Under the pieces are notes generated by a model. The model did no database searches. It saw only the letters and a program-made list of their open reading frames with translations, and had not been told where the DNA came from. A stretch of 9,239 nucleotides of DNA from a virus (lineage: Duplodnaviria > Heunggongvirae > Uroviricota > Caudoviricetes), in the IMG/VR virus record IMGVR_UViG_2657245112_000034; one strand, 5' to 3'. The stretch's first letter is position 1, and each line of letters begins with the position of its first letter. The translations under genes were made by a program, and so were the position numbers. This document shows, piece after piece, positions 1-9,239 of the stretch.

Positions 1-192
1 TTGTTCTGGTGTTATCGGAGAGGCTTTTGGTGTTTTGCCCTGACGCTCATCACGCAGTTGTTTGACCCATCTTGTCATTGTGGAAAGGCCAACATCCATA
101 GCTTTGGCGGCATCTGCCACCGTGTATGTCTGGTCAACAACCAGTTGAGCGGATTCGCGTTTAAACTCTGCGCTAAAATTTCTTTTTTTCAT
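1..192 (-). CDS. IS3-family transposase OrfA (HTH DNA-binding part), N-terminal 64 codons; 3' part lies outside window
   Basis: Hand translation from ATG (forward cat 190-192): [64 protein letters not shown], matching from memory the IS911 OrfA N-terminus. Not in the ORF track because it runs off the window. Confidence 0.8.
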
Positions 193-264
193 TGGAGCAC
201 CTGTGTTGTTCTGAGGTGAGCATATCACCTCTGTTCAGGTGGCCAAATTCAGTAAACCACTTCA
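1..264 (-). mobile_element. Partial IS3-family insertion sequence (IS911-like), left end only; element continues beyond window start
   Basis: Minus-strand translation of 1..192 is a recognisable IS3-family OrfA N-terminus; terminal sequence on minus strand begins TGAAGTGG (forward ccacttca at 257-264, repeated at 265-272), consistent with IS3-family TG...CA ends. Exact end (264 vs 272) uncertain. Confidence 0.7.
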
Positions 265-292
265 CCACTTCAGAGCAGACGAGACAAAAAGA

Positions 293-865
293 ATGGTTGA
301 CGCATCAGCTCAACCCCATATAGTTGTAACACTTGAGCCAAACCCTTGGGCCGCTTTTTACTTTGATATTAACATTGCTAATACAGGGAACGCACCTGCC
401 TATAATGTTGAGGTTGTGTTTGATCCTCCACTAGTAAATGCGGAGCATAGAGAAAAAAGTGAGATTCCGTTTAGTAAGGTAAGCGTGTTAAAAAATGGGC
501 AATCACTTACCAGCAATCTCTGTAAGTATGAACAAATCAAAGATCAAATTTATAATATTAATATAAGCTGGGCAAGCAAACCTAAATCAAACGATAGAGA
601 AACAAATGAATATGTGTATGACATGGCGACATTTGAAGGAATAAGTTATCTAGGAGCGAGAAGCCCATTGACGCAAATTGCAGAACAAATTAAAGGTATA
701 AGAGAGGATTGGAAACCTATTGCACAAGGAGCTAAAAAAGTAAAAGCAGACGTATATACTTCAAGCGATAGAAACGAAGAACGCACGTATCTGCAAGAGC
801 AACACGATTTGGCAATAAAAAGGAGAGATGAGAAAAGAGAAAAAAGATTAGAGTCTGGTGAATAA
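293..865 (+). CDS. Hypothetical protein, 190 aa from ATG 293 (frame open from GTG 239 inside the IS end); possibly 5'-truncated by the IS insertion
   Basis: ORF track 239..865; first ATG at 293 with weak purine-rich upstream (gacgagacaaaaaga). AT-rich codon usage; charged C-terminal tail RRDEKREKRLESGE. No family recognised. Confidence 0.5.
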   Translation: MVDASAQPHIVVTLEPNPWAAFYFDINIANTGNAPAYNVEVVFDPPLVNAEHREKSEIPFSKVSVLKNGQSLTSNLCKYEQIKDQIYNINISWASKPKSNDRETNEYVYDMATFEGISYLGARSPLTQIAEQIKGIREDWKPIAQGAKKVKADVYTSSDRNEERTYLQEQHDLAIKRRDEKREKRLESGE

Positions 866-874
866 TTTTAAAGG

Positions 875-895
875 GAGTGGGTAACTAACCCACTC
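875..895. terminator. Hairpin between convergent genes (8-bp stem gagtgggt/acccactc, 5-nt loop), possible bidirectional terminator
   Basis: Perfect inverted repeat gagtgggtaactaacccactc lying between the stop at 863-865 (+) and the stop at 914-916 (-); no long T-tract on either side, so weak as an intrinsic terminator. Confidence 0.35.
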
Positions 896-913
896 GTAAC
901 TATAAACCTGTAA

Positions 914-1738
914 TTAATCACTTATTTTTGACAACAGATAATTACTGAACGCACTGCAAGTGACTAACATAAATTTAGCTTCAGCTAAGGTAGGATTTAC
1001 ATCTTCTTCTGTTAGCGCATGACGTATTCCACCCTGATCACTTGTATAACCATAGAGCTGACTAAAAGCGCCTTTCATTGCAGAGTGTATATATCCTTTT
1101 TCCTCTATAGCTTTAAGACAAGCCCCCAAGGTTCCTTTATCATTGCCCGTGATTTTCCTGCATAAAGATTCAATTGCAGAGATAGACTCTTTAATCGAGT
1201 TTCTGTAGTCTGGCTGCTCTCTATCCGTCATTAGTTGTAACGCCCTTTCGAAATGGCTACGCGATGAATCAGTGCCATTATCAACTGCGTTCTGAACACT
1301 TTCAATTTCGTTATCATTTGAAATAGGAGTAATACAACCATTTATTATGGTATAACCAACGCCATGCTTTTTAAAGATGGAATTGAGATGCTTCGATAGA
1401 TTAATATATGAATTAGTTCTCTCAATGATGAACTCAATTAAATCATATACCAAATACCATGCTTCCCCATATATATAATCTCGGATAGCAGTCAGCAACG
1501 TCTTATCACTTTTGTATCCACTTTCATAACGAGGAATATTATCCGCAGGTTGATTTAGATAATATATCCACACAGACTGCGCACATTTTGTTGCTGTAGC
1601 AGTTTGACGATTGTTAGTCCAAAGGAAAAGATATAAGCAATTCCACAATGCCATGCGTGTATCAGAATTAAGATCATTCAGCTGGACATGCTCTCTAACG
1701 TCAACATGACCATACCTCACAGAAAATGGCTTTATCAT
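914..1738 (-). CDS. Hypothetical protein, 274 aa, AT-rich; function unknown
   Basis: Long uninterrupted ORF; ATG at 1738 preceded by purine-rich caggcaggggaaga; W/Y-rich N-terminal half and helix-like C-terminal half. No catalytic motif confidently recognised by eye. Confidence 0.65.
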   Translation of the reverse strand: MIKPFSVRYGHVDVREHVQLNDLNSDTRMALWNCLYLFLWTNNRQTATATKCAQSVWIYYLNQPADNIPRYESGYKSDKTLLTAIRDYIYGEAWYLVYDLIEFIIERTNSYINLSKHLNSIFKKHGVGYTIINGCITPISNDNEIESVQNAVDNGTDSSRSHFERALQLMTDREQPDYRNSIKESISAIESLCRKITGNDKGTLGACLKAIEEKGYIHSAMKGAFSQLYGYTSDQGGIRHALTEEDVNPTLAEAKFMLVTCSAFSNYLLSKISD

Positions 1739-2271
1739 TCTTCCCCTGCCTGATTGTTATGTTCGTTTAAATTATGCAGTCTAAGTTTGATACAATCATA
1801 TATTAAGCAATAGAATCCATAAAGCCCCGTTGGTGGTAAGACAACAAGCGGAGCCTCTTGCGACTTCATCAGGGTTATGTCAGTTAGTGAGGCTTATCAG
1901 GATGACCATGTACCCAAGGGGAGCGAGGCCGAACCGCTGGCAGAGCTTGCATATGGTCTGCAAGTACCGTGACCACCATAAACCTGTTTATCCCCTGCGG
2001 CGTCTCGCGACGGCGACAGAATGGGGGCATCGGGCTAAAATGCGCTGCACTAAAAGTTTTGGGATTGTTTAGAGACGGTGGCTACGTCATAGCTTTCAAG
2101 TTGAGTCAGTACGTGTTTGACGCTTGGAACGACACGCCGCTATGAGTTAACATCCCAATTACCACTATCAACCACAGCGGCTTTTTCAAGGGACATAACA
2201 GAGCATTTCTTACAGGCAAAAGAGACAGATTTAATCGTCTAACTAACTGTATTGTAAGGAATTTAGTAACT

Positions 2272-2292
2272 TGGTGCGAAGGCCGGACTCGC
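2272..2292 (-). other. att-like site: partial copy of a tRNA-Leu (leuX-type) 3' end, probable satellite attachment-site repeat marking the left boundary
   Basis: Minus strand reads GTGCGAGTCCGGCCTTCGCACCA; the 15-nt CGAGTCCGGCCTTCG plus CACCA matches, from memory, the T-arm/acceptor 3' end of leuX (P4 integrates at leuX) with one G missing. Upstream sequence is AT-rich and not tRNA-like, so this is a fragment, not a gene. Confidence 0.45.
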
Positions 2293-2374
2293 ACACACAT
2301 TTAACCTATTGTAAAAATTGAAATTTAATTATAATTAATTCAATTATGCCCCTTTTTGTGCCCCCACCATTCTC

Positions 2375-2583
2375 TGTTCACATTTTGATTTTTGTTGATT
2401 ATTTATCCAAAAATCATCAGAGAAATAGTCAATCTAGTTAGGTTCCGTTAAACGGATCCAAACCGGGACTTGACTCTACAAAAAATACTTTTTTTTCGCA
2501 AAACCATGCACACTATTCACCCTGCCATTTTTAACTTATATATCAATTGTTTACGTGTTAACAGCGAGGTGAAGAGTGAACAG
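2375..2583. repeat. crr-like patch of alpha-iteron-like octamers downstream of the alpha gene
   Basis: TGTTCACA at 2375-2382, TATTCACC at 2514-2521, tandem GGTGAAGA/GTGAACAG at 2568-2583; these resemble the P4 type I iteron TGTTCACC / GGTGAACA in both orientations. Confidence 0.3.
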
Positions 2584-2605
2584 CTATCTCTACATTTGTG
2601 CGTTT

Positions 2606-2632
2606 CCAATAAGAAGCCCGGCATCAGCCGGG
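2606..2632 (-). terminator. Probable intrinsic terminator after the alpha gene
   Basis: Forward cccggc atca gccggg (2617-2632) forms a 6-bp GC stem; on the minus strand it is followed by the U-rich CUUCUUAUUGG, 12 nt after the alpha stop (2644-2646). Confidence 0.45.
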
Positions 2633-2643
2633 TTAGTTAATCG

Positions 2644-4977
2644 TTATTTTAATATTGGCTCATCACACTTGGGCAGCCAGTCTGCATTACTCTCCTCTTT
2701 CAAAGTGAGGTTAGTTTGCATTCCCTGATTAGTTCGCCGTTTCTCATAATGTAGCCCGTACTCCTTCAGCATGACTGGCAACCCTTTGCCAAACATCGTA
2801 AGACTCAGGGTGTTTTTATAGCCATTAGCCTCCATGTATACGAGGTAGGCATGGTAAAGGTATGTACGTGGCTGGCGTGGGACAATATTGGCGTTCCCCA
2901 TAAACATACCGTTGGTGTCAGGTAATGCCTCAAGGTAGCCACAAAAATCAAATGCTGGATCAGCATCACGCTTGATGGTGAGAGCCTCATCAGAATTCTG
3001 CTGCGACTGAAGCAATGTTCTGGCGCTCATCGGATCGCTGAAACGCTGCATGAGCTGACGAACAATCACAGCCAGTTCTCGTGCAATTTTATCTTTCAAC
3101 TGCGGATCGCGTTCTTCCGGTGCTATCTGCTCAGGAAAATGCAGAATAACTCTCCTGCGGGACACACCACCACTGCGATCAGTGAAGCGCATAGGATTAT
3201 TATTTACGGCCAAGATAACCGCCGGAATATGTGTTGAATAAGCATTCTGATATTTGGGGTCCACAGATACTGCATCGCCACCAGTTATAGCCTTAAGCCC
3301 GGCGCCGTCGCCGCTCCACTTCTCCTGATCAGGCAGGCGAATAAGAGAAAAACCTATCAGAGCCGCACGTTCTCGCGGGGACTCCAGCGTTTCAATGGTC
3401 GCAGAGGTGGCGTTATCCTCTCCAGCAAGCATGGTCGCAATTTCAGCCAGAATACTTTTGCCACTTCCACCAGGGCCAGTCACTTCCAGAAAGAGCTGCC
3501 AGTCATAGCGGTTCGCCAGCACCATAAATAACGCTGCAAGAATAATGTCGCGTTTTGCTGGCTTGTGTCCGGCGGCCCGGTCCAGCCAACGCCAGAATGC
3601 CGGGGCATGAGTTTCAAGCGTTTCCCCCTTTACCGGTGGCGTGAAATCGACTTCACACAGGGTACGCAGCCAGTTCTCTTTACAGTGCGGACTAAAAAGC
3701 CCTGTTCGCGTATCGAGAACGCCATTACGAAAACCAATCAGATGACGTGACGGATTTTGCTGCTGCGGAACAATTAACTTTAATGTTTCCACCAGTGAGG
3801 CAATTTTTCCTGAGGAAAACGGTGCCCCGAGGCGCTGGAAAAGGGCTGCGACATCTCGGGCAAAATCTGACTGAGAAATAACTTTCCACGCTCCAGACTC
3901 GTAGCGGGATAAAAGCTGCCCGTTCGGATCAACCGCCAGTGCATCCCTGTAATGCTCCCGAACCCTCTGAGCTTTTTCGCTGACACTCATCGCTGTGAAT
4001 TCTGCTTCACTCATTGTGTCGAAAGGACTGGCGTTATGTGGCTTCAAAGCCTCAAGAATTGCCTTCCGGGTGGATTCCTCTCCGTATTGGGTAAGCGCAT
4101 CATTCCAGTCACCAAAAACCGGTGGCAGCACAATGTCACACTGACTCGCTTTTGCAGCAGTTTCAGCCCTGTTCTGGCCTGAACCATTCAGATCGCGGTC
4201 CGCTGCAATAATTAACTGATATCCCGGATACTTATTATGGGCAACGCTGCTCAGAGAAAGAAAGTTGACCGACGAAAATGCCACCATGACGGCTTCTCCT
4301 GTCAAATAATGAATGGTAAGCGCCGTGGCGTAACCTTCCGCAATCCAAATCCTTCTTACAGAACTCCCGCCCCCTTCTATCAGATGATAGGCCTCCTTAA
4401 CCTGACCTCCTTTAAGAAAACACTTGCTACCATTGCCACTGATGAGCTGAATATTCACCAGCTCCCCGTCAGCGTTATAGAGTGGGACGATCAAATCACC
4501 GGGGCGGAACATCATACCACCGGCCTTATGAGCTGAAGTCAGCTCATGGCAAATATGCTCCGGGAAACCTTTATGTGTAAGATAAGTGTTTCCGGCAGAT
4601 TCACGCGAGGCTTGCAGCAGTCGCGCGGCAAGTGCTGCCGCTGCATCTTTCCCGCTATCGGTATCGGCGGTTAACGTCCTGACCTCGGAATTAACTACAG
4701 ACAGATCATGTGTCAGTCCATGTATCCTGTCAGCTGCTTCACTGATATCCACATTCAGTGCCCTGGTGACAAGCGCTAAACCATCCCCGGCTCCGCACTG
4801 ATTGCAGAACCATGTTCCGCGTCCTTCCTGATCGTCGAAGCGAAAACGATCTTTACCGCCACAGACCGGGCAAGGCTGATGGCGATTTTTCAATATATTC
4901 ACGCCCAGCGCTGGCAGAATCTGAGCCCAGTGACCGCGGGCAGCCTTCACGGCCTGACTGACTTTCATTCCTGACAT
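2644..4977 (-). CDS. alpha: P4 alpha-type bifunctional DNA primase / replicative helicase with C-terminal origin-binding region
   Basis: 777 aa from ATG at 4977 (RBS GAGGGAGAA upstream; ORF track extends to 5028 but has no RBS there). Zn-ribbon CPVCGGKDRFRF...WFCNQCG near N-terminus, Toprim-like IWIAEGYATA...IIAADRD, Walker A GPGGSGKS. Length equals P4 alpha as I recall it. Confidence 0.9.
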   Translation of the reverse strand: MSGMKVSQAVKAARGHWAQILPALGVNILKNRHQPCPVCGGKDRFRFDDQEGRGTWFCNQCGAGDGLALVTRALNVDISEAADRIHGLTHDLSVVNSEVRTLTADTDSGKDAAAALAARLLQASRESAGNTYLTHKGFPEHICHELTSAHKAGGMMFRPGDLIVPLYNADGELVNIQLISGNGSKCFLKGGQVKEAYHLIEGGGSSVRRIWIAEGYATALTIHYLTGEAVMVAFSSVNFLSLSSVAHNKYPGYQLIIAADRDLNGSGQNRAETAAKASQCDIVLPPVFGDWNDALTQYGEESTRKAILEALKPHNASPFDTMSEAEFTAMSVSEKAQRVREHYRDALAVDPNGQLLSRYESGAWKVISQSDFARDVAALFQRLGAPFSSGKIASLVETLKLIVPQQQNPSRHLIGFRNGVLDTRTGLFSPHCKENWLRTLCEVDFTPPVKGETLETHAPAFWRWLDRAAGHKPAKRDIILAALFMVLANRYDWQLFLEVTGPGGSGKSILAEIATMLAGEDNATSATIETLESPRERAALIGFSLIRLPDQEKWSGDGAGLKAITGGDAVSVDPKYQNAYSTHIPAVILAVNNNPMRFTDRSGGVSRRRVILHFPEQIAPEERDPQLKDKIARELAVIVRQLMQRFSDPMSARTLLQSQQNSDEALTIKRDADPAFDFCGYLEALPDTNGMFMGNANIVPRQPRTYLYHAYLVYMEANGYKNTLSLTMFGKGLPVMLKEYGLHYEKRRTNQGMQTNLTLKEESNADWLPKCDEPILK

Positions 4978-4991
4978 GACGCAGTTCTCCC

Positions 4992-5315
4992 TCAGTGTAA
5001 AACCGGCTTTTTGATGTGACGGACGCATAACTCATCCATTACGGCTATTCCGAGCTGGGAGAGTGCGGGACAGGACATTAGAGGGCCGTATTCCATCAGG
5101 TCTGAAAGCAGGGCGCAGGCGATTTCCATGCCTTTTGTTTGCCCGTGCTGTCGCAGATAAAATCCTTCAAGCTCACGGGCAATAGCGGTTTCAATTTCAT
5201 CCAGAGTGAGCTGCAGATGGCGGTTTTGCTGATAGCAGGCACTCAACCAGGCGCAGGCTACCGCGCGGCGATACAACGCTACCCGAAGTGAAAGGGAAAG
5301 AGTGCGTGATTTCAT
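4992..5315 (-). CDS. Hypothetical early-left-operon protein, 107 aa
   Basis: ATG at 5315 with RBS GGAGGTGGTG; start overlaps the upstream gene's stop in ATGA (5312-5315); ends 14 nt before the alpha start. No family recognised. Confidence 0.6.
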
Positions 5316-5536
5316 TGCACCACCTCCATGTTCATGAGGTCATCCTGGCAACGCTGTACCACGCCATCAAGCTGCTCTGTCATCAGATAAATCAGGGAAA
5401 CCAGTTGTTCACATTGAGCACTGGCAGGTTTTTCGTAGCAATCCTGAAGAACAGCCATTCCAGTGACAAACTCTCCCACGTTACGAAGATGCTTCAGGCG
5501 GAGAATATCGTCATAAGAGATTGCGGCGTGATTCAT
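5312..5536 (-). CDS. Small protein, 74 aa, at the position of P4 epsilon (function unverified)
   Basis: ATG at 5536 (forward cat 5534-5536) with strong RBS GGGAGGTGA; the ORF-track extension to 5575 lacks an RBS. Start overlaps the upstream ORF stop as TAATG. Confidence 0.55.
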
Positions 5537-5727
5537 TAGATCACCTCCCGGACAGGCAGGCGAGCAGCAAGACAAAGCACATACTCATGGACCAGTGAAA
5601 GACGTGCATGATGCTCATTGCTGGCGATGATACGCAGCATACTGATACGTGGTTTACGTTCTGCACGACGAACGGCGGCAAAAACAAATATAAATTGAGG
5701 ATGTGACGGGGCGAGGATCGTAGCCAT
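5536..5727 (-). CDS. Small protein, 63 aa ([63 protein letters not shown]), kil-like position downstream of the immunity RNA region
   Basis: ATG at 5727 (forward cat 5725-5727) preceded by GGAGGT at 7-nt spacing; it is the 3' end of the 234-aa ORF-track frame 5536..6240, the rest of which overlaps RNA elements and vis. Confidence 0.35.
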
Positions 5728-5764
5728 AAGGGCAACCTCCAATAAGTAGCGGTAAATGCCACCA

Positions 5765-5781
5765 CCGGAGTTCCTACGCTC
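5765..5781 (-). promoter_or_regulatory. seqC-like RNA target element (transcript GAGCGUAGGAACUCCGG)
   Basis: Forward gttcctacgc at 5770-5779 is a 10/10 direct repeat of 5977-5986; it sits in the loop of a stem accacc (5761-5766) / ggtggt (5785-5790). Confidence 0.45.
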
Positions 5782-5789
5782 ATGGGTGG

Positions 5790-5875
5790 TGACCCGAACG
5801 GGGGTAGGAATACCGGCCTTATTGGAAACCGGCCAGCCCGAAGGCTGCCCCGCCCGGACCACCATTATCTGAAAG
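5790..5875 (-). ncRNA. Candidate P4 CI-like immunity RNA (boundaries approximate)
   Basis: No credible ORF; holds the single complementary element (transcript CCGGUAUUCCUACCCCCG, forward gtaggaa 5805-5811) and a CAGCC-UUCG-GGCUG tetraloop hairpin (forward 5834-5847). Matches P4 seqA/seqB/seqC logic. Confidence 0.4.
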
Positions 5876-5930
5876 GGGCTAAGGTATAAGCACCGCAGCC
5901 CGAAAAATGGGTGTGCCTGAGCAACGACGT

Positions 5931-5953
5931 AAAAAAAGACGCACGGCGCGTCT
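5931..5953 (-). terminator. Intrinsic terminator / attenuator in the leader between the seqA-like element and the RNA
   Basis: Transcript AGACGC-GCCGU-GCGUCU followed by seven U (forward A-tract 5931-5937), read directly from the minus strand. Confidence 0.45.
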
Positions 5954-5971
5954 GGTGTCGCCAATAAGTAA

Positions 5972-5990
5972 CTCGGGTTCCTACGCCCGG
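5972..5990 (-). promoter_or_regulatory. seqA-like RNA target element (transcript GGGCGUAGGAACCCGAG)
   Basis: Forward gttcctacgc at 5977-5986; complementary to the UUCCUAC-CCC element at 5801-5816 (about 10 of 11 positions can pair). Confidence 0.45.
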
Positions 5991-6015
5991 CAGCCGATTT
6001 TGCGGCAGCGGGAAA

Positions 6016-6045
6016 ACTATACCTGGAAAAGATATCAGGACGCAA
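6016..6045 (-). promoter_or_regulatory. Sigma70-type promoter candidate (P_LE-like) for the immunity / early-left transcript
   Basis: Minus strand TTGCGT (forward 6040-6045), 18-nt spacer, TATAGT (forward 6016-6021), just downstream of the vis stop; predicted start near 6008. Confidence 0.4.
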
Positions 6046-6080
6046 GCCAGAAAAAAGAAGATGAGACTGCAAAGCAAGTT

Positions 6081-6341
6081 TCACGCATGGCCTCCTTGCT
6101 CGCGGGCAGCAATTCGCGCCGCCATCCATGCACTGACCTCCGACTGTACCCAGGCCACATTTTTTCCACCCAGGGATATCTGCTGCGGGAAGGCATCGCG
6201 GCTGATAAGGTCGTAGATGGTTGAACGGGATAGCCCGCAAAGGTGCATCACTTCAGGTAATCGTATGAAGCGCTCCTGCTGAGCCGGAACCGGGAGCACC
6301 GGAGCAGCTGGTGCCGGGGTGGAAACGGAAATACTATTCAT
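6081..6341 (-). CDS. vis: AlpA/Vis-family helix-turn-helix regulator / excisionase-like protein, 86 aa
   Basis: [50 protein letters not shown] is a typical AlpA-family HTH signature; ATG at 6341 with RBS GAGAGGTAG; Pro/Ala-rich N-terminal tail. Confidence 0.85.
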
Positions 6342-6830
6342 CTGGCTACCTCTCTAATATGTTTACAACAGTCCGGGCAATTCCATGCGGATTCAGGTAG
6401 CTCCTTATTATGTTTATATAAGCGGCTCGCGCATGCTTTATTTATTTTGTGTGAAATGTTGATTTCTCAAAAAATAAAACAGCTAAAAACCGTATGAAAC
6501 GAACAAAAACAAACAATTCCTTTATGGAATATAATAAGGAGCATCAATAATAAAAAAGTCTATTACACTAGGCAGGATCACAGCTCAAATCTGAACCAGC
6601 CCATATCATTCAGGGCGTTACATCATAAGCACTAAGACAACACCTGATTAATAAAAGAGCCAAAACGGCCAAAAATAAACAGCTCACCATATGTATCAAT
6701 AAATCCGATGATTAAAGAAATTAAATTACCATCTTACTTCCGCATGTATCCGGATGTGTTTAATGAACATCAGACAAATTCATTTTTATGAATATTTTCC
6801 TGAAATGCAACTGAGTGCAGGGAGGTTGAA

Positions 6831-6847
6831 TGTTTAATTATTAAACA
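6831..6847. promoter_or_regulatory. Perfect 17-bp palindrome TGTTTAAT-T-ATTAAACA, candidate operator
   Basis: 8+1+8 palindrome verified base by base; the half-site TGTTTAAT recurs at 6757-6764 and 6981-6988. Confidence 0.3.
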
Positions 6848-6886
6848 GACATAAGACATCTTTTATTCTTTACATAGAATATGTAT

Positions 6887-7100
6887 TGAATACTGGTGAA
6901 TACTGGTGAATATTGGTGAGGAGAAAAGATCCAGTAATAAACTGAAATAAATATCGCGACTTATATGAAAAAGAAATATATGTTTAATTTTATCTCTGTG
7001 AACAGTCATGAACAGTAGATGATCACTTTAATTAAAACACTACACCACTTAACCACATGTATTTACTATATTTTTATTGAAGTGAACAGTAGTGAATAGT
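6887..7100 (+). repeat. ori-like cluster of alpha-iteron-like octamers, including three tandem 10-bp units
   Basis: TGAATACTGG x2 and TGAATATTGG (6887-6916) give GGTGAATA at 6895 and 6905; GTGAACA at 6998 and 7082, ATGAACA at 7008, GTGAATA at 7092; all same orientation, paired at 10-bp spacing; about 4.5 kb from the crr-like patch. Confidence 0.45.
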
Positions 7101-7165
7101 ATGTATTAAAGGAAGCGTGTAGATCAGACATGACACCTTTCTCTGGCTAGCCAGAACAAGGTCAT

Positions 7166-7183
7166 TGTTCAGTCACTGACACA
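7166..7183 (+). promoter_or_regulatory. P_sid-like late promoter activator site, TGT-N12-ACA dyad
   Basis: TGTTCAGTCACTGACACA has an internal palindrome CAGTcACTG; centre is about 81 bp upstream of the sid-like ATG; weak -10-like CACAAT at 7218-7223 and no clear -35, as expected for Ogr/Delta-dependent P2/P4 late promoters. Confidence 0.4.
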
Positions 7184-7255
7184 ATCCTCCTCGGTAGTGC
7201 GCTTGTATGGACCCCGGCACAATTGACACAACAACAAAACACTACCGGAGCAGTC

Positions 7256-8008
7256 ATGACTACTGTTAACCAGATCCCTGATGCAAACATTACACCCTCC
7301 CTCCCACCGAAAATTCGCGAAGCGGTGGATAAAGTTAAGGCAGCAAAAGCTGTCTGGCAGGAAGAACGACGAAAACAAACTGAAGCTGCTGCAATGATTG
7401 AAACTATCCGTAAACGTCAGGAAGATACAAAAACGGAAACGCAGGCGCTTAATGATGAATGGCGAAACCTGTTTCGTGAGAATCAGGGAAATATGACGCC
7501 ACGCATGAAAAAACTGCGGGCAGAAATCGCCCTCGGACGCGAAACACTGGATGAGTTCGAAGATTTGCTGGCAGCTCAGGCGGCAGAAAATGAATTCCTG
7601 CCCTGGAAAACTGCGGATGCTGCAAACCACTACATCAGCGAACATAATCGCCTGATTGAAACTCATGCAGTGTGGCTCTGGAATGAGTTTATGAAGGAAC
7701 ACGGTCAGAAACTTATTCAGATCCTTGGACTGCTGAAAATGACTCTGGGCCGAAGCGCTTCTGCTGTTATCGGTGTAGTTCATACCGTAAACGACCCCGA
7801 AAGTGTGCTGAAGCAATTTATCAGCGAGCAACTCACCACTCCGGCACTGTCCTGTAACGTATCTTCAACCGATGATATTACCCTGCCGGGGATCAGCATT
7901 TATGCGGACGATAAAGCCATCCAGGATGCCAGACAATCCCCCAGCCCTGCAGCGCGTTCACGGATGCTTAAACAGCGTGACATGGTTAAAGGGGGCGAGA
8001 AGAAATGA
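7256..8008 (+). CDS. Sid-like protein by position (alpha-helical, coiled-coil-rich), 250 aa
   Basis: ATG at 7256 with GGAG 5 nt upstream (ORF track starts at TTG 7223); first gene after the late promoter; heptad-like charged helices (WQEERRKQTEAAAMIETIRKRQEDTKTE...). Assignment is by synteny, not recognised sequence. Confidence 0.6.
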   Translation: MTTVNQIPDANITPSLPPKIREAVDKVKAAKAVWQEERRKQTEAAAMIETIRKRQEDTKTETQALNDEWRNLFRENQGNMTPRMKKLRAEIALGRETLDEFEDLLAAQAAENEFLPWKTADAANHYISEHNRLIETHAVWLWNEFMKEHGQKLIQILGLLKMTLGRSASAVIGVVHTVNDPESVLKQFISEQLTTPALSCNVSSTDDITLPGISIYADDKAIQDARQSPSPAARSRMLKQRDMVKGGEKK

Positions 8009-8559
8009 ATGCCGGAACCATTACTCAGGAAGCACTCAACGATTACCGCTCGGCGATAAAAAGCTGGCTGACACTACGTAATACGCAAAGTACCTACCAG
8101 CTTCGTCTGGCGGCTCTGCTGGATACTGAAGAAAAACCGGCAGCATATGCCAGCCAGCTTGAGGATCTTCGTGAGCGTCTTGCAGTCCTCGAATGGCAGA
8201 TTAACTGTGCTGCACGGGATGGTCTTTATGCTCATCAGATTGTGCTGGAGAGTTGTGTTACAAGCGCAACGGAAAACTTCATGAGCGAGCATGGTGATGC
8301 ACTCACTGACGCTCTGGCTCCTTTTCTTTGCGCTCCATACGGGCTTGAGGCGGCAATGAAAATATTACGAACCGCTGTAGCCCGACAAACGGAAATGCGT
8401 ACTCCGGTAATTTCAGCAGCATATAAGAGCATTATCGACGAAACCGGATTAACGGTGGATGCATCAATGCGCGCTGATGCTTCAGCCAGTTTCACCCCGG
8501 CACAACATAAAGTTTTCCTGGCCCGCCTTAACCGACTTAATGAAAAAGGAGTGTGCTGA
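8005..8559 (+). CDS. psu: Psu-like protein (polarity suppression / capsid decoration), 184 aa
   Basis: Start overlaps the sid-like stop in ATGA (8005-8008); segments SWLTLRN, LEWQINCAA, DALAPFL and FTPAQ agree with my recollection of P4 Psu; predicted all-helical. Confidence 0.6.
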   Translation: MNAGTITQEALNDYRSAIKSWLTLRNTQSTYQLRLAALLDTEEKPAAYASQLEDLRERLAVLEWQINCAARDGLYAHQIVLESCVTSATENFMSEHGDALTDALAPFLCAPYGLEAAMKILRTAVARQTEMRTPVISAAYKSIIDETGLTVDASMRADASASFTPAQHKVFLARLNRLNEKGVC

Positions 8560-8560
8560 T

Positions 8561-8833
8561 ATGGCCCTGAAGTGTCCTGAATGTGGCGCGGTCGCTCACG
8601 CCAGAACCAGCGCCTATGAAGCTCCGTCGGTTAAACGCTCATGGTATCAGTGCCAGAATCTGGAATGTTCCTGCACATTTACCGCACTGGAAAGCGTGGA
8701 TACGATAATTATGAAGCCTCGGTGCAATGAACAGGAATCAGACAAAGCAAAAATACCGGAAAAACAACAGCAAACTCTCAATCGCTATGGCTCCGCGTCA
8801 AAGCTGTCAAACCGTCAGCAAATTCCTGTCTGA
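8561..8833 (+). CDS. Ogr/Delta-family zinc-finger late transcription activator, single domain, 90 aa
   Basis: ATG at 8561 with AAGGAG upstream (the ORF-track start at 8459 overlaps psu and is rejected); CPECGAVAHARTS...QCQNLECSCTF matches the P2 Ogr Cys4 signature. Confidence 0.85.
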   Translation: MALKCPECGAVAHARTSAYEAPSVKRSWYQCQNLECSCTFTALESVDTIIMKPRCNEQESDKAKIPEKQQQTLNRYGSASKLSNRQQIPV

Positions 8834-8854
8834 TTAGCAAAATACGACCACGAA

Positions 8855-8880
8855 GTCCCGGTCCAGTACCGGGATTTTTT
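8855..8880 (+). terminator. Rho-independent terminator of the late operon
   Basis: gtcccgg (8855-8861), loop tccagta, ccgggat (8869-8875, one G-U pair), then T6 at 8875-8880, about 20 nt after the stop. Confidence 0.7.
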
Positions 8881-8924
8881 ACGCCTTTTTCCTGGCTGGC
8901 CTGAGAGCGTATGAGTGCATATCT

Positions 8925-8959
8925 ATGGCGCATGAAAACGCATGAGTCTCATGCGCCAT
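8925..8959. repeat. Perfect 11-bp inverted repeat atggcgcatga / tcatgcgccat with 13-nt spacer, followed by TTTT
   Basis: Read directly; the spacer also carries gcatgaaaac, which recurs at 9011-9020. Confidence 0.3.
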
Positions 8960-9036
8960 TTTTGACGCGAAAGCCCTTGTGTGGTGGCTTCTGAGACGAT
9001 TTACGGGGTGCATGAAAACCAGTCTGTTAAGCGAAG

Positions 9037-9062
9037 CGGGCAGGCGGGCGGGGCATTGCGCG
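9037..9062. other. Degenerate cos-like G-rich motif (very tentative)
   Basis: cgggcaggcgggcggggcattgcgcg loosely resembles the P2/P4 cohesive-end sequence GGCGAGGCGGGGAAAGCAC as I recall it, but only with indels. Confidence 0.15.
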
Positions 9063-9142
9063 CAGGAATGTGTATACCGTTTTAGTAATGATCGCTGACA
9101 TCTCACTTTTAAGTAAGCGACTCGTCAGAACCGTATTGATAT

Positions 9143-9239
9143 TTACTGAGAGCTCAGATCAACTTTCCAGGGCAACAGATCGCGTACCCGGTTTGCCGGC
9201 CAGTCCTGGATATGTTCAATGACGTAACGCAGCCACTTT
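9143..9239 (-). CDS. 3' end of a minus-strand gene entering from the right edge (C-terminus ...KWLRYVIEHIQDWPANRVRDLLPWKVDLSSQ); identity unknown
   Basis: Hand translation of the minus strand gives an open frame from the window edge to TAA (forward tta 9143-9145); absent from the ORF track because it is truncated. Lies just past the cos-like region where P4-like elements carry variable cargo. Confidence 0.4.
   Translation of the reverse strand, partial: KWLRYVIEHIQDWPANRVRDLLPWKVDLSSQ

What the first reader, a model, noticed from the sequence alone, without database searches (positions are those of the whole stretch)
9143..9239. Truncated minus-strand gene at the right edge, in the variable cargo position
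A gene ending ...HIQDWPANRVRDLLPWKVDLSSQ runs toward the cos-like region from beyond the window. In P4-like elements the stretch between the late operon/cos and the integrase is where variable cargo, often anti-phage systems, is carried. Only 31 codons are visible, so identity is unknown, but the remainder downstream is a priority region.
Basis: partly seen in the sequence, partly recalled or inferred. Interest (0 to 1): 0.4.

Follow-up and report, generated by a model that had tools for sequence, protein, structure and literature searches.

The report
Insertion-sequence transposase tail, not satellite cargo
The cut-off gene at the right edge is the last 31 codons of the transposase of a common jumping element (ISCro1, IS66 family) that landed just past the packaging site of a P4-like phage satellite, so it is ordinary and already annotated, and the satellite's real cargo lies beyond it.

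Summary
Window 9143-9238 (minus strand) reads KWLRYVIEHIQDWPANRVRDLLPWKVDLSSQ*, and the frame stays open to the window edge. It is not satellite cargo. It is the C-terminus of TnpC, the transposase of ISCro1, a 2699-bp IS66-family insertion sequence. The IS tip (GTAAGCGACTCG...) is at window 9113. The 31 residues alone pass Pfam's cut-off for the IS66 C-terminal element. The whole window is 100% identical to more than 40 complete STEC O26/O103/O111 genomes, where RefSeq annotates this gene as an ISCro1-family transposase. The IS is multicopy, with sharp shared ends. In O26:H11 11368 it carries the expected 8-bp target duplication, ACTTTTAA. A 99.7%-identical satellite without the IS (strain SJC33) shows the empty site.

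The P4-like core, including a cos-like site, ends at about 9054-9064, and the variable slot begins there. The IS sits about 50 bp into that slot. The real cargo follows the IS: an unannotated 528-aa protein with a nuclease fold and an MtlR-like protein, then the integrase and tRNA-Leu. In some strains, recombination between two ISCro1 copies has inverted about 27.6 kb and moved the cargo away. Known element, low interest.

The parts
9143..9239 (-). 3' end of tnpC, the IS66-family DDE transposase of ISCro1: the last 31 codons, a TAA stop at 9143-9145, and one extra base at the window edge
   Evidence: Translation. Pfam PF13817 at 31.7 bits against a cut-off of 30. Identical to the C-terminus of WP_000381395.1, 523 aa.
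9113..9239 (.). Terminal 127 bp of a 2699-bp ISCro1 copy (the tnpC-proximal end). The terminal inverted repeat starts GTAAGCGACTCGTCAGAACCGT at 9113.
   Evidence: Independent IS copies in E. coli genomes match query positions 201-2899 of L001:11914-15012, which places the IS tip at window 9113. The two ends match 16 of 22 bases as inverted repeats. The pattern occurs only once in the window.
9105..9112 (.). Target site ACTTTTAA, the left copy of the 8-bp target-site duplication
   Evidence: In O26:H11 11368 (L005) the IS is flanked by ACTTTTAA on both sides. The empty site in SJC33 (L004) has a single copy.
9065..9104 (.). First bases of the variable (cargo) module of the satellite, shared only with elements that carry the same cargo
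   Evidence: Matches in 824 genomes stop at window 9054-9064. Only 105 genomes continue to 9112. The window is 99.7% identical to L004 up to the IS.
9031..9064 (.). cos-like core of the P4-like satellite
   Evidence: Local alignment to the joined ends of phage P4 (NC_001609). The core is 5 nt shorter than P4's 19-nt cohesive end.
8561..8833 (+). ogr/Delta-like zinc-finger gene, the last satellite core gene before cos (context)
   Evidence: RefSeq annotation of identical sequence, WP_001185332.1.
8005..8559 (+). psu, polarity suppression protein (context; the left anchor of the published hotspot)
   Evidence: RefSeq annotation WP_000991130.1. The ORF is listed.

Best explanation
The truncated gene is the 3' end of tnpC, the DDE transposase gene of ISCro1. 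ISCro1 is a 2699-bp IS66-family insertion sequence with the gene order tnpA-tnpB-tnpC. It transposed into the 8-bp target ACTTTTAA, about 50 bp beyond the cos-like site of a P4-like satellite integrated at tRNA-Leu (leuX) in the STEC O26/O103/O111 lineage. The window ends 127 bp inside the IS. The insertion lies at the very start of the satellite's variable cargo slot. It separates the core (sid-like gene, psu, delta, cos) from the cargo and the integrase. It also provides homology for recombination with a second, inverted ISCro1 copy about 27.6 kb away, and in some strains that recombination has inverted the intervening segment. Shown here: the gene's identity, the IS ends, the target duplication, the empty site, the multicopy nature and the inversion variants. 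Inferred: that transposition used the usual IS66 route (TnpC catalysis with TnpA and TnpB as accessory proteins), and that the 2.7-kb gain and the inversion impair packaging and mobility of the satellite.
For: Gene identity:
- One search gives the reading frame and stop.
- In one search the 31-aa fragment passes PF13817. The full-length protein from identical genomes hits DDE_Tnp_IS66 (345.8 bits), zf-IS66, LZ_Tnp_IS66 and DDE_Tnp_IS66_C. The neighbouring genes hit TnpB_IS66 and HTH_Tnp_1.
- In one search the full-length protein hits NCBIfam transpos_IS66 at 477.9 bits (cut-off 180).
- In one search the fragment equals the C-terminus of the 523-aa protein.

Genomic matches:
- In some searches the window is 100% identical to many complete genomes, where the gene is annotated 'IS66-like element ISCro1 family transposase'.
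- In one search the element is present in thousands of places on chromosomes and plasmids, with ends at the same two positions, giving a length of 2699 bp.

Insertion event:
- Searches show the GTAAGCG/GTAACCG inverted ends, the 8-bp duplication ACTTTTAA in O26:H11 11368, the empty site in SJC33, and swapped flanks on the two copies in E2865.
- Comparing coordinates shows the cargo exactly 2581 bp from the window's end in 12 genomes, 3919 bp away in the same orientation in one more, and inverted and distant in 6.
- In one search, PMC12115866 describes ISCro1 as a 2699-bp IS66-family element that makes an 8-bp duplication.
Against: Only 127 bp of the IS lie inside the window, so the window cannot show that this copy is complete. 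That conclusion rests on genomes identical over all 9239 bases. The ISfinder reference sequence of ISCro1 was not available for direct comparison. An exact 51-nt search of one genome per species found only two MAG contigs. The name therefore rests on RefSeq naming and on the published length and duplication size. No activity data were obtained.
Confidence: 0.97

Rival explanations
1. The gene is variable cargo of the P4-like satellite, possibly an anti-phage gene occupying the psu-int hotspot.
For: The position is correct. The conserved satellite core ends at 9054-9064, and relatives carry SIR2+HerA or other genes in this slot. The hotspot is published.
Against: The peptide is 100% identical to the C-terminus of an IS66 transposase. 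The DNA from 9113 onward is a multicopy element found on chromosomes and plasmids in unrelated contexts. A near-identical satellite lacks it and shows an intact target site.
Confidence: 0.01
2. The window holds only a dead IS remnant (a truncated end of ISCro1 left by a deletion), not the end of a complete element.
For: The window stops 127 bp into the IS, so completeness cannot be read from it. Partial ISCro1 copies do exist in E. coli (for example the hits covering only query 201-589 or 201-1182).
Against: Both genomes inspected at this junction (E2865 and O26:H11 11368) have the full 2699-bp element with three intact ORFs. The coordinate spacing of 2581 bp in 12 genomes fits a full-length element.
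Confidence: 0.02
3. The gene is a conserved P4 core gene of the gop/beta/cII region.
For: In phage P4 itself, gop, beta and cII lie immediately after cos.
Against: The protein is an IS66 TnpC. None of the relatives inspected carries gop/beta/cII here. A blastn of window 8560-9112 against phage records found nothing.
Confidence: 0

Closest known systems
ISCro1 (IS66 family), first named in Citrobacter rodentium ICC168 and widespread on Enterobacterales chromosomes and plasmids
   Same: Length of 2699 bp and an 8-bp target duplication, as published (PMC12115866). The tnpA-tnpB-tnpC organisation. TnpC with the zf-IS66, LZ, DDE_Tnp_IS66 and C-terminal domains. RefSeq names the identical protein an ISCro1-family transposase. 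Like the published cases, it acts as a substrate for homologous recombination, here producing an inversion.
   Different: Nothing detected.
The cos-adjacent psu-int defence hotspot of P4-like satellites (Rousset et al. 2022, PMC9122126)
   Same: The insertion lies inside this hotspot. The conserved sequence ends at the cos-like site, and different relatives carry different cassettes before int. The published hotspot table already lists a locus holding IS66 genes with the same TnpA and TnpB accessions, WP_001339397 and WP_000624622.
   Different: The gene in the finding is a passenger IS, not a hotspot cassette. The cassette itself (a 528-aa PD-(D/E)XK-fold protein plus an MtlR-like protein) lies outside the window.
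Phage P4 non-essential region gop-beta-cII
   Same: It occupies the same place relative to cos and int.
   Different: No sequence relationship. These genes are absent from this satellite and from the relatives inspected.

Membership tests
IS66 family insertion sequence (ISCro1) | Transposase TnpC with the IS66 DDE domain and the IS66 C-terminal element | tested here: met
   The window fragment scores 31.7 bits on PF13817 (cut-off 30). The full-length identical protein scores PF03050 345.8 bits, PF13817 58 bits, PF13007 49 bits and PF13005 48.3 bits, and NCBIfam NF033517 477.9 bits against a cut-off of 180.
IS66 family insertion sequence (ISCro1) | Three-gene organisation tnpA-tnpB-tnpC | tested here: met
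   Seen in E2865 and O26:H11 11368, both identical to the window at the junction. tnpB hits PF05717 at 136 bits and tnpA hits HTH_Tnp_1. These genes lie outside the window.
IS66 family insertion sequence (ISCro1) | Imperfect terminal inverted repeats beginning GTAA(G/C)CG | tested here: met
   The tip at window 9113 reads GTAAGCGACTCG... and the other end reads GTAACCGGCTCA... They match at 16 of the first 22 bases. That IS66 ends start with GTAAGCG is from my own knowledge of the family.
IS66 family insertion sequence (ISCro1) | 8-bp target-site duplication | tested here: met
   ACTTTTAA lies on both sides of the IS in L005 and occurs once at the empty site in L004. The window holds only the left copy, at 9105-9112.
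IS66 family insertion sequence (ISCro1) | Multicopy element with identical boundaries in unrelated contexts | tested here: met
   The query (IS plus 200-bp flanks) matched 18,389 places in 3,990 of 5,426 genomes, a count that includes flank-only and distant ISEc8-family matches. Near-identical IS copies on chromosomes and plasmids start at query 201 and end at 2899.
IS66 family insertion sequence (ISCro1) | Sequence identity to the ISfinder reference ISCro1 | not testable with these tools
   No ISfinder copy was available. Support is indirect: RefSeq naming and the published 2699-bp length and 8-bp duplication.
IS66 family insertion sequence (ISCro1) | Transposition activity of this copy | not testable with these tools
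   This needs an experiment. The intact ORFs, near-identical copies (2698-2699 of 2699 bases) and a clean duplication suggest recent activity.
Cargo cassette of the P4-like psu-int hotspot | Lies between psu/delta-cos and the integrase of a P4-like satellite | tested here: met
   In L005 the order is psu, delta, cos-like site, IS, two cargo genes, int, tRNA-Leu. The conserved core ends at 9054-9064.
Cargo cassette of the P4-like psu-int hotspot | A gene belonging to the satellite's own variable module rather than to an independent mobile element | tested here: not met
   The gene belongs to a self-contained IS with its own ends and target duplication. A 99.7%-identical satellite lacks it.
P4 core gene (gop/beta/cII region) | Homology to P4 gop, beta or cII | tested here: not met
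   The protein is assigned to IS66 TnpC with full-length family matches. No DNA match to phage records was found for the adjacent region. No direct protein-protein comparison with gop, beta or cII was run.

The most novel reading that the evidence does not exclude
The finding itself offers nothing new. The most novel reading left open concerns what lies just beyond the IS, outside the window. The slot's true cargo is an unannotated 528-aa protein (WP_000091133). It has an N-terminal PD-(D/E)XK nuclease fold and an overall Foldseek match to a chain of the NbaSPARDA complexes 9jt2_B and 9jsz_J. It has no hit in PADLOC, Pfam or NCBIfam. A 50%-identical homologue sits in the equivalent cos-adjacent hotspot of a P2-like prophage. 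It may be an undescribed single-gene anti-phage nuclease. The ISCro1 insertion, and the inversion it allows, may uncouple this gene from the satellite.
Probability: 0.35. Interest if true: 0.45.

Novelty: already known. Interest (0 to 1): 0.08.

Why it matters
It matters mainly for triage. The gene at the window edge should not be pursued as a defence candidate, because it is a routine, already annotated IS transposase. The result does confirm that this window ends at a genuine P4-like cargo hotspot, and it locates the real cargo. That cargo lies 8 bp past the far end of the IS in most identical genomes, or about 30 kb away and inverted in others. It also gives a clean example of an IS first inserting into, and then splitting, a phage satellite. 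Such events are a plausible route by which satellites become immobile chromosomal islands.

Tried and rejected
- Translating 9143-9239 as given produced the wrong frame. The frame was corrected.
- I first took E2865 (L001) as the model for what lies to the right of the window. There the IS has no target duplication and abuts an Hha/YfjI/Ag43 island, which suggested an IS-mediated deletion of the cargo and integrase. I rejected this when the cargo turned up elsewhere in the same genome in inverted orientation and when O26:H11 11368 showed a simple insertion with a duplication.
- Junction-spanning queries meant to count simple against inverted arrangements cannot separate them, because each IS end stays attached to its own flank after an intra-IS crossover. 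I used coordinate comparison instead.
- A blastn of window 8560-9112 against phage records found nothing. I aligned the P4 cos junction directly instead.
- An exact 51-nt scan of one genome per species, meant to confirm the Citrobacter origin of the IS, returned only two MAG contigs.
- A sigma-70-like match straddles the insertion point in the empty site. It is no better than chance expectation, so I do not rely on it.
- The MtlR-like partner of the cargo gene is not found next to distant homologues of that gene. A two-gene system is therefore not supported.

Full report
**Observation.** The minus strand of window 9143-9238 translates to KWLRYVIEHIQDWPANRVRDLLPWKVDLSSQ followed by TAA at 9143-9145. 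The frame stays open to the window edge.

**Identity of the gene.**
- A 240-base query across the site matched 3,478 E. coli records. The feature under the match is annotated 'IS66-like element ISCro1 family transposase'. Only 101 genomes cover the part to the left of the gene, so the right-hand part is a repeated element and the left-hand part is unique context.
- The entire 9239-base window is 100% identical to more than 40 complete genomes of STEC O26:H11, O103 and O111:H11.
- In those genomes the gene is WP_000381395.1 (523 aa), and its last 31 residues equal the window's peptide.
- The full protein has all four IS66 TnpC domains in Pfam and scores 477.9 bits on NCBIfam transpos_IS66.
- The 31-residue fragment alone passes the PF13817 cut-off, 31.7 against 30 bits.
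- The next two genes are IS66 tnpB and tnpA.

**Limits of the element.**
- A query of the IS plus 200-base flanks showed that independent copies on chromosomes and plasmids begin at query 201 and end at 2899. The element is therefore 2699 bp long, and its tnpC-proximal tip is at window 9113.
- The tip reads GTAAGCGACTCGTCAGAACCGT. The other end is GTAACCGGCTCATTTAAACCGT in inverted orientation, matching at 16 of 22 bases.
- The stop codon lies 30 bases inside the tip.
- A published description of ISCro1 gives the same length (2699 bp), the IS66 family and an 8-bp target duplication (PMC12115866). ISCro1 was named in Citrobacter rodentium, where it is the most expanded IS (PMC3072379).

**The insertion event.**
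- Strain SJC33 carries a satellite 99.7% identical to window 2273-9112 but without the IS. There the sequence runs ...CTCACTTTTAA|TAATCATGATGG....
- In O26:H11 11368 the IS is flanked by ACTTTTAA on both sides and is followed by TAATCATGATGG. This is a simple transposition with the expected 8-bp duplication.
- In strain E2865, the first genome I inspected, the copy next to cos is followed by CGCTGCTT and an Hha/YfjI/GTPase/Ag43 island. A second ISCro1 copy 27.6 kb away carries the reciprocal flanks (CGCTGCTT ... ACTTTTAA) and abuts the cargo, int and tRNA-Leu. This is the signature of homologous recombination between two inverted copies, that is, an inversion.
- I compared the coordinates of the window and of the cargo in the genomes listed in both tables. 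Twelve have the cargo exactly 2581 bp from the window's end, which is the simple insertion. One has an extra ~1.3 kb between them. Six have the inverted arrangement.
- Because the window ends inside the IS, it cannot tell which arrangement its source has. The identity of the gene is the same either way.

- The window holds a P4-like satellite. It has an alpha primase-helicase (2644-5028, minus), a C4 antisense RNA and isrK, a sid-like gene, psu (8005-8559) and an ogr/Delta-like gene (8561-8833).
- Window 9031-9064 aligns to the joined cohesive ends of phage P4.
- Matches to P4-like elements in 824 genomes end at window 9054-9064. Only 105 genomes continue to 9112.
- Intact relatives at tRNA-Leu carry SIR2+HerA (ET826) or a 528-aa protein plus an MtlR-like protein (SJC33) between this point and the integrase.
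- This is the cos-adjacent psu-int hotspot described by Rousset et al. (PMC9122126). Their supplementary table already contains a hotspot locus with IS66 genes bearing the same TnpA and TnpB accessions.
- So the slot is the cargo slot, but the visible gene is a passenger IS about 50 bp into it. It is neither cargo nor a P4 core gene.

**How it works.**
- Shown: an ISCro1 copy inserted at ACTTTTAA. It separates the satellite core and cos from the cargo and integrase, and it has recombined with a second copy in some strains.
- Inferred from knowledge of the IS66 family: TnpC is the DDE transposase, and TnpA and TnpB are accessory proteins.
- Inferred: a 2.7-kb gain in a satellite whose relatives span about 11-12 kb would hinder packaging in small capsids. 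The inversion places int and cargo about 30 kb from the rest of the element, which should prevent excision as a unit.
- A weak sigma-70-like match straddles the insertion point in the empty site, but it is no better than chance.

**Beyond the finding.**
- The true cargo protein is 528 aa (L005 15049-16635). It has no Pfam, PADLOC or NCBIfam match and no PDB sequence match.
- It has only 23 clusters of homologues. All those that carry a source name come from Enterobacterales, and one source names it DUF4365.
- D37, E41, Q64 and K66 are invariant across the family.
- By Foldseek the best hits are chains of the NbaSPARDA complexes (probability 0.99, but TM only about 0.2).
- A 50%-identical homologue lies between gpA and the portal gene of a P2-like prophage in Cronobacter. 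This is the P2 counterpart of the same hotspot (hotspot definition). Another homologue is a lone chromosomal gene in Lonsdalea.
- The MtlR-like neighbour is not conserved with it.
- This is a reasonable defence candidate, but it lies outside the window.

**Verdict.** The feature is a known, already annotated insertion sequence. Novelty: already known. Interest: low.

Noticed in passing
[not shown]
   Followed up: partly
L005 16774-17613: The second cargo gene encodes a 279-aa protein with a weak MtlR (mannitol repressor) / DUF4145-like region (Pfam 33 bits; PDB 6kcr_A E 7e-6). It is not found beside distant homologues of the 528-aa protein, so it may be an independent gene.
   Followed up: partly
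L001 12114-14812 and L006 9057-11755 (E. coli E2865), compared with L005: There is an inversion polymorphism of about 27.6 kb between two inverted ISCro1 copies within the leuX island. Six of 19 genomes compared have the inverted form, which separates int and cargo from the rest of the satellite.
   Followed up: yes
window 9031-9064: The cos-like core aligns to the P4 cos junction but is 5 nt shorter within the 19-nt cohesive-end sequence (GGCGGGCGGGGCAT against GGCGAGGCGGGGAAAGCAC). This could be a variant packaging site or a degenerate one.
   Followed up: partly
window 914-1738 (minus strand): A 274-aa AbiJ_NTD4 protein (Pfam 95.5 bits) matches the PADLOC candidate system PDC-S32 (E 5.6e-104). 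It lies in window 1-2272, which is not shared with the SJC33 and ET826 relatives. Those carry an HNH endonuclease there, so this is a second variable region beyond alpha.
   Followed up: partly
window 239-865 (plus strand): A 208-aa ORF with no family hit in Pfam, PADLOC or NCBIfam. It is annotated as hypothetical in E2865 and is interrupted by IS600 in O26:H11 11368.
   Followed up: no
window 5782-5869 and 5932-6009 (minus strand): C4 antisense RNA (83.4 bits) and isrK (72.1 bits), the P4-type immunity RNA region.
   Followed up: no
window 6887-6896: The only difference from E2865 across the window is one extra copy of a 10-bp tandem unit (TGAATACTGG), in a region corresponding to the P4 ori-type repeats.
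   Followed up: no
L004 10106-10133 (empty site in SJC33): A 9-of-12 sigma-70-like match (CTGACA, 16 nt, CATGAT) straddles the ISCro1 insertion point upstream of the cargo gene. It is not above chance expectation.
   Followed up: no
L009 (SFGJ01000083.1, 2699 bp) and L008: Two contigs in MAGs labelled Clostridiales consist of this IS. L009 is exactly 2699 bp and matches at 2698 of 2699 bases. This is most likely mis-binning or contamination rather than true host range.
   Followed up: no
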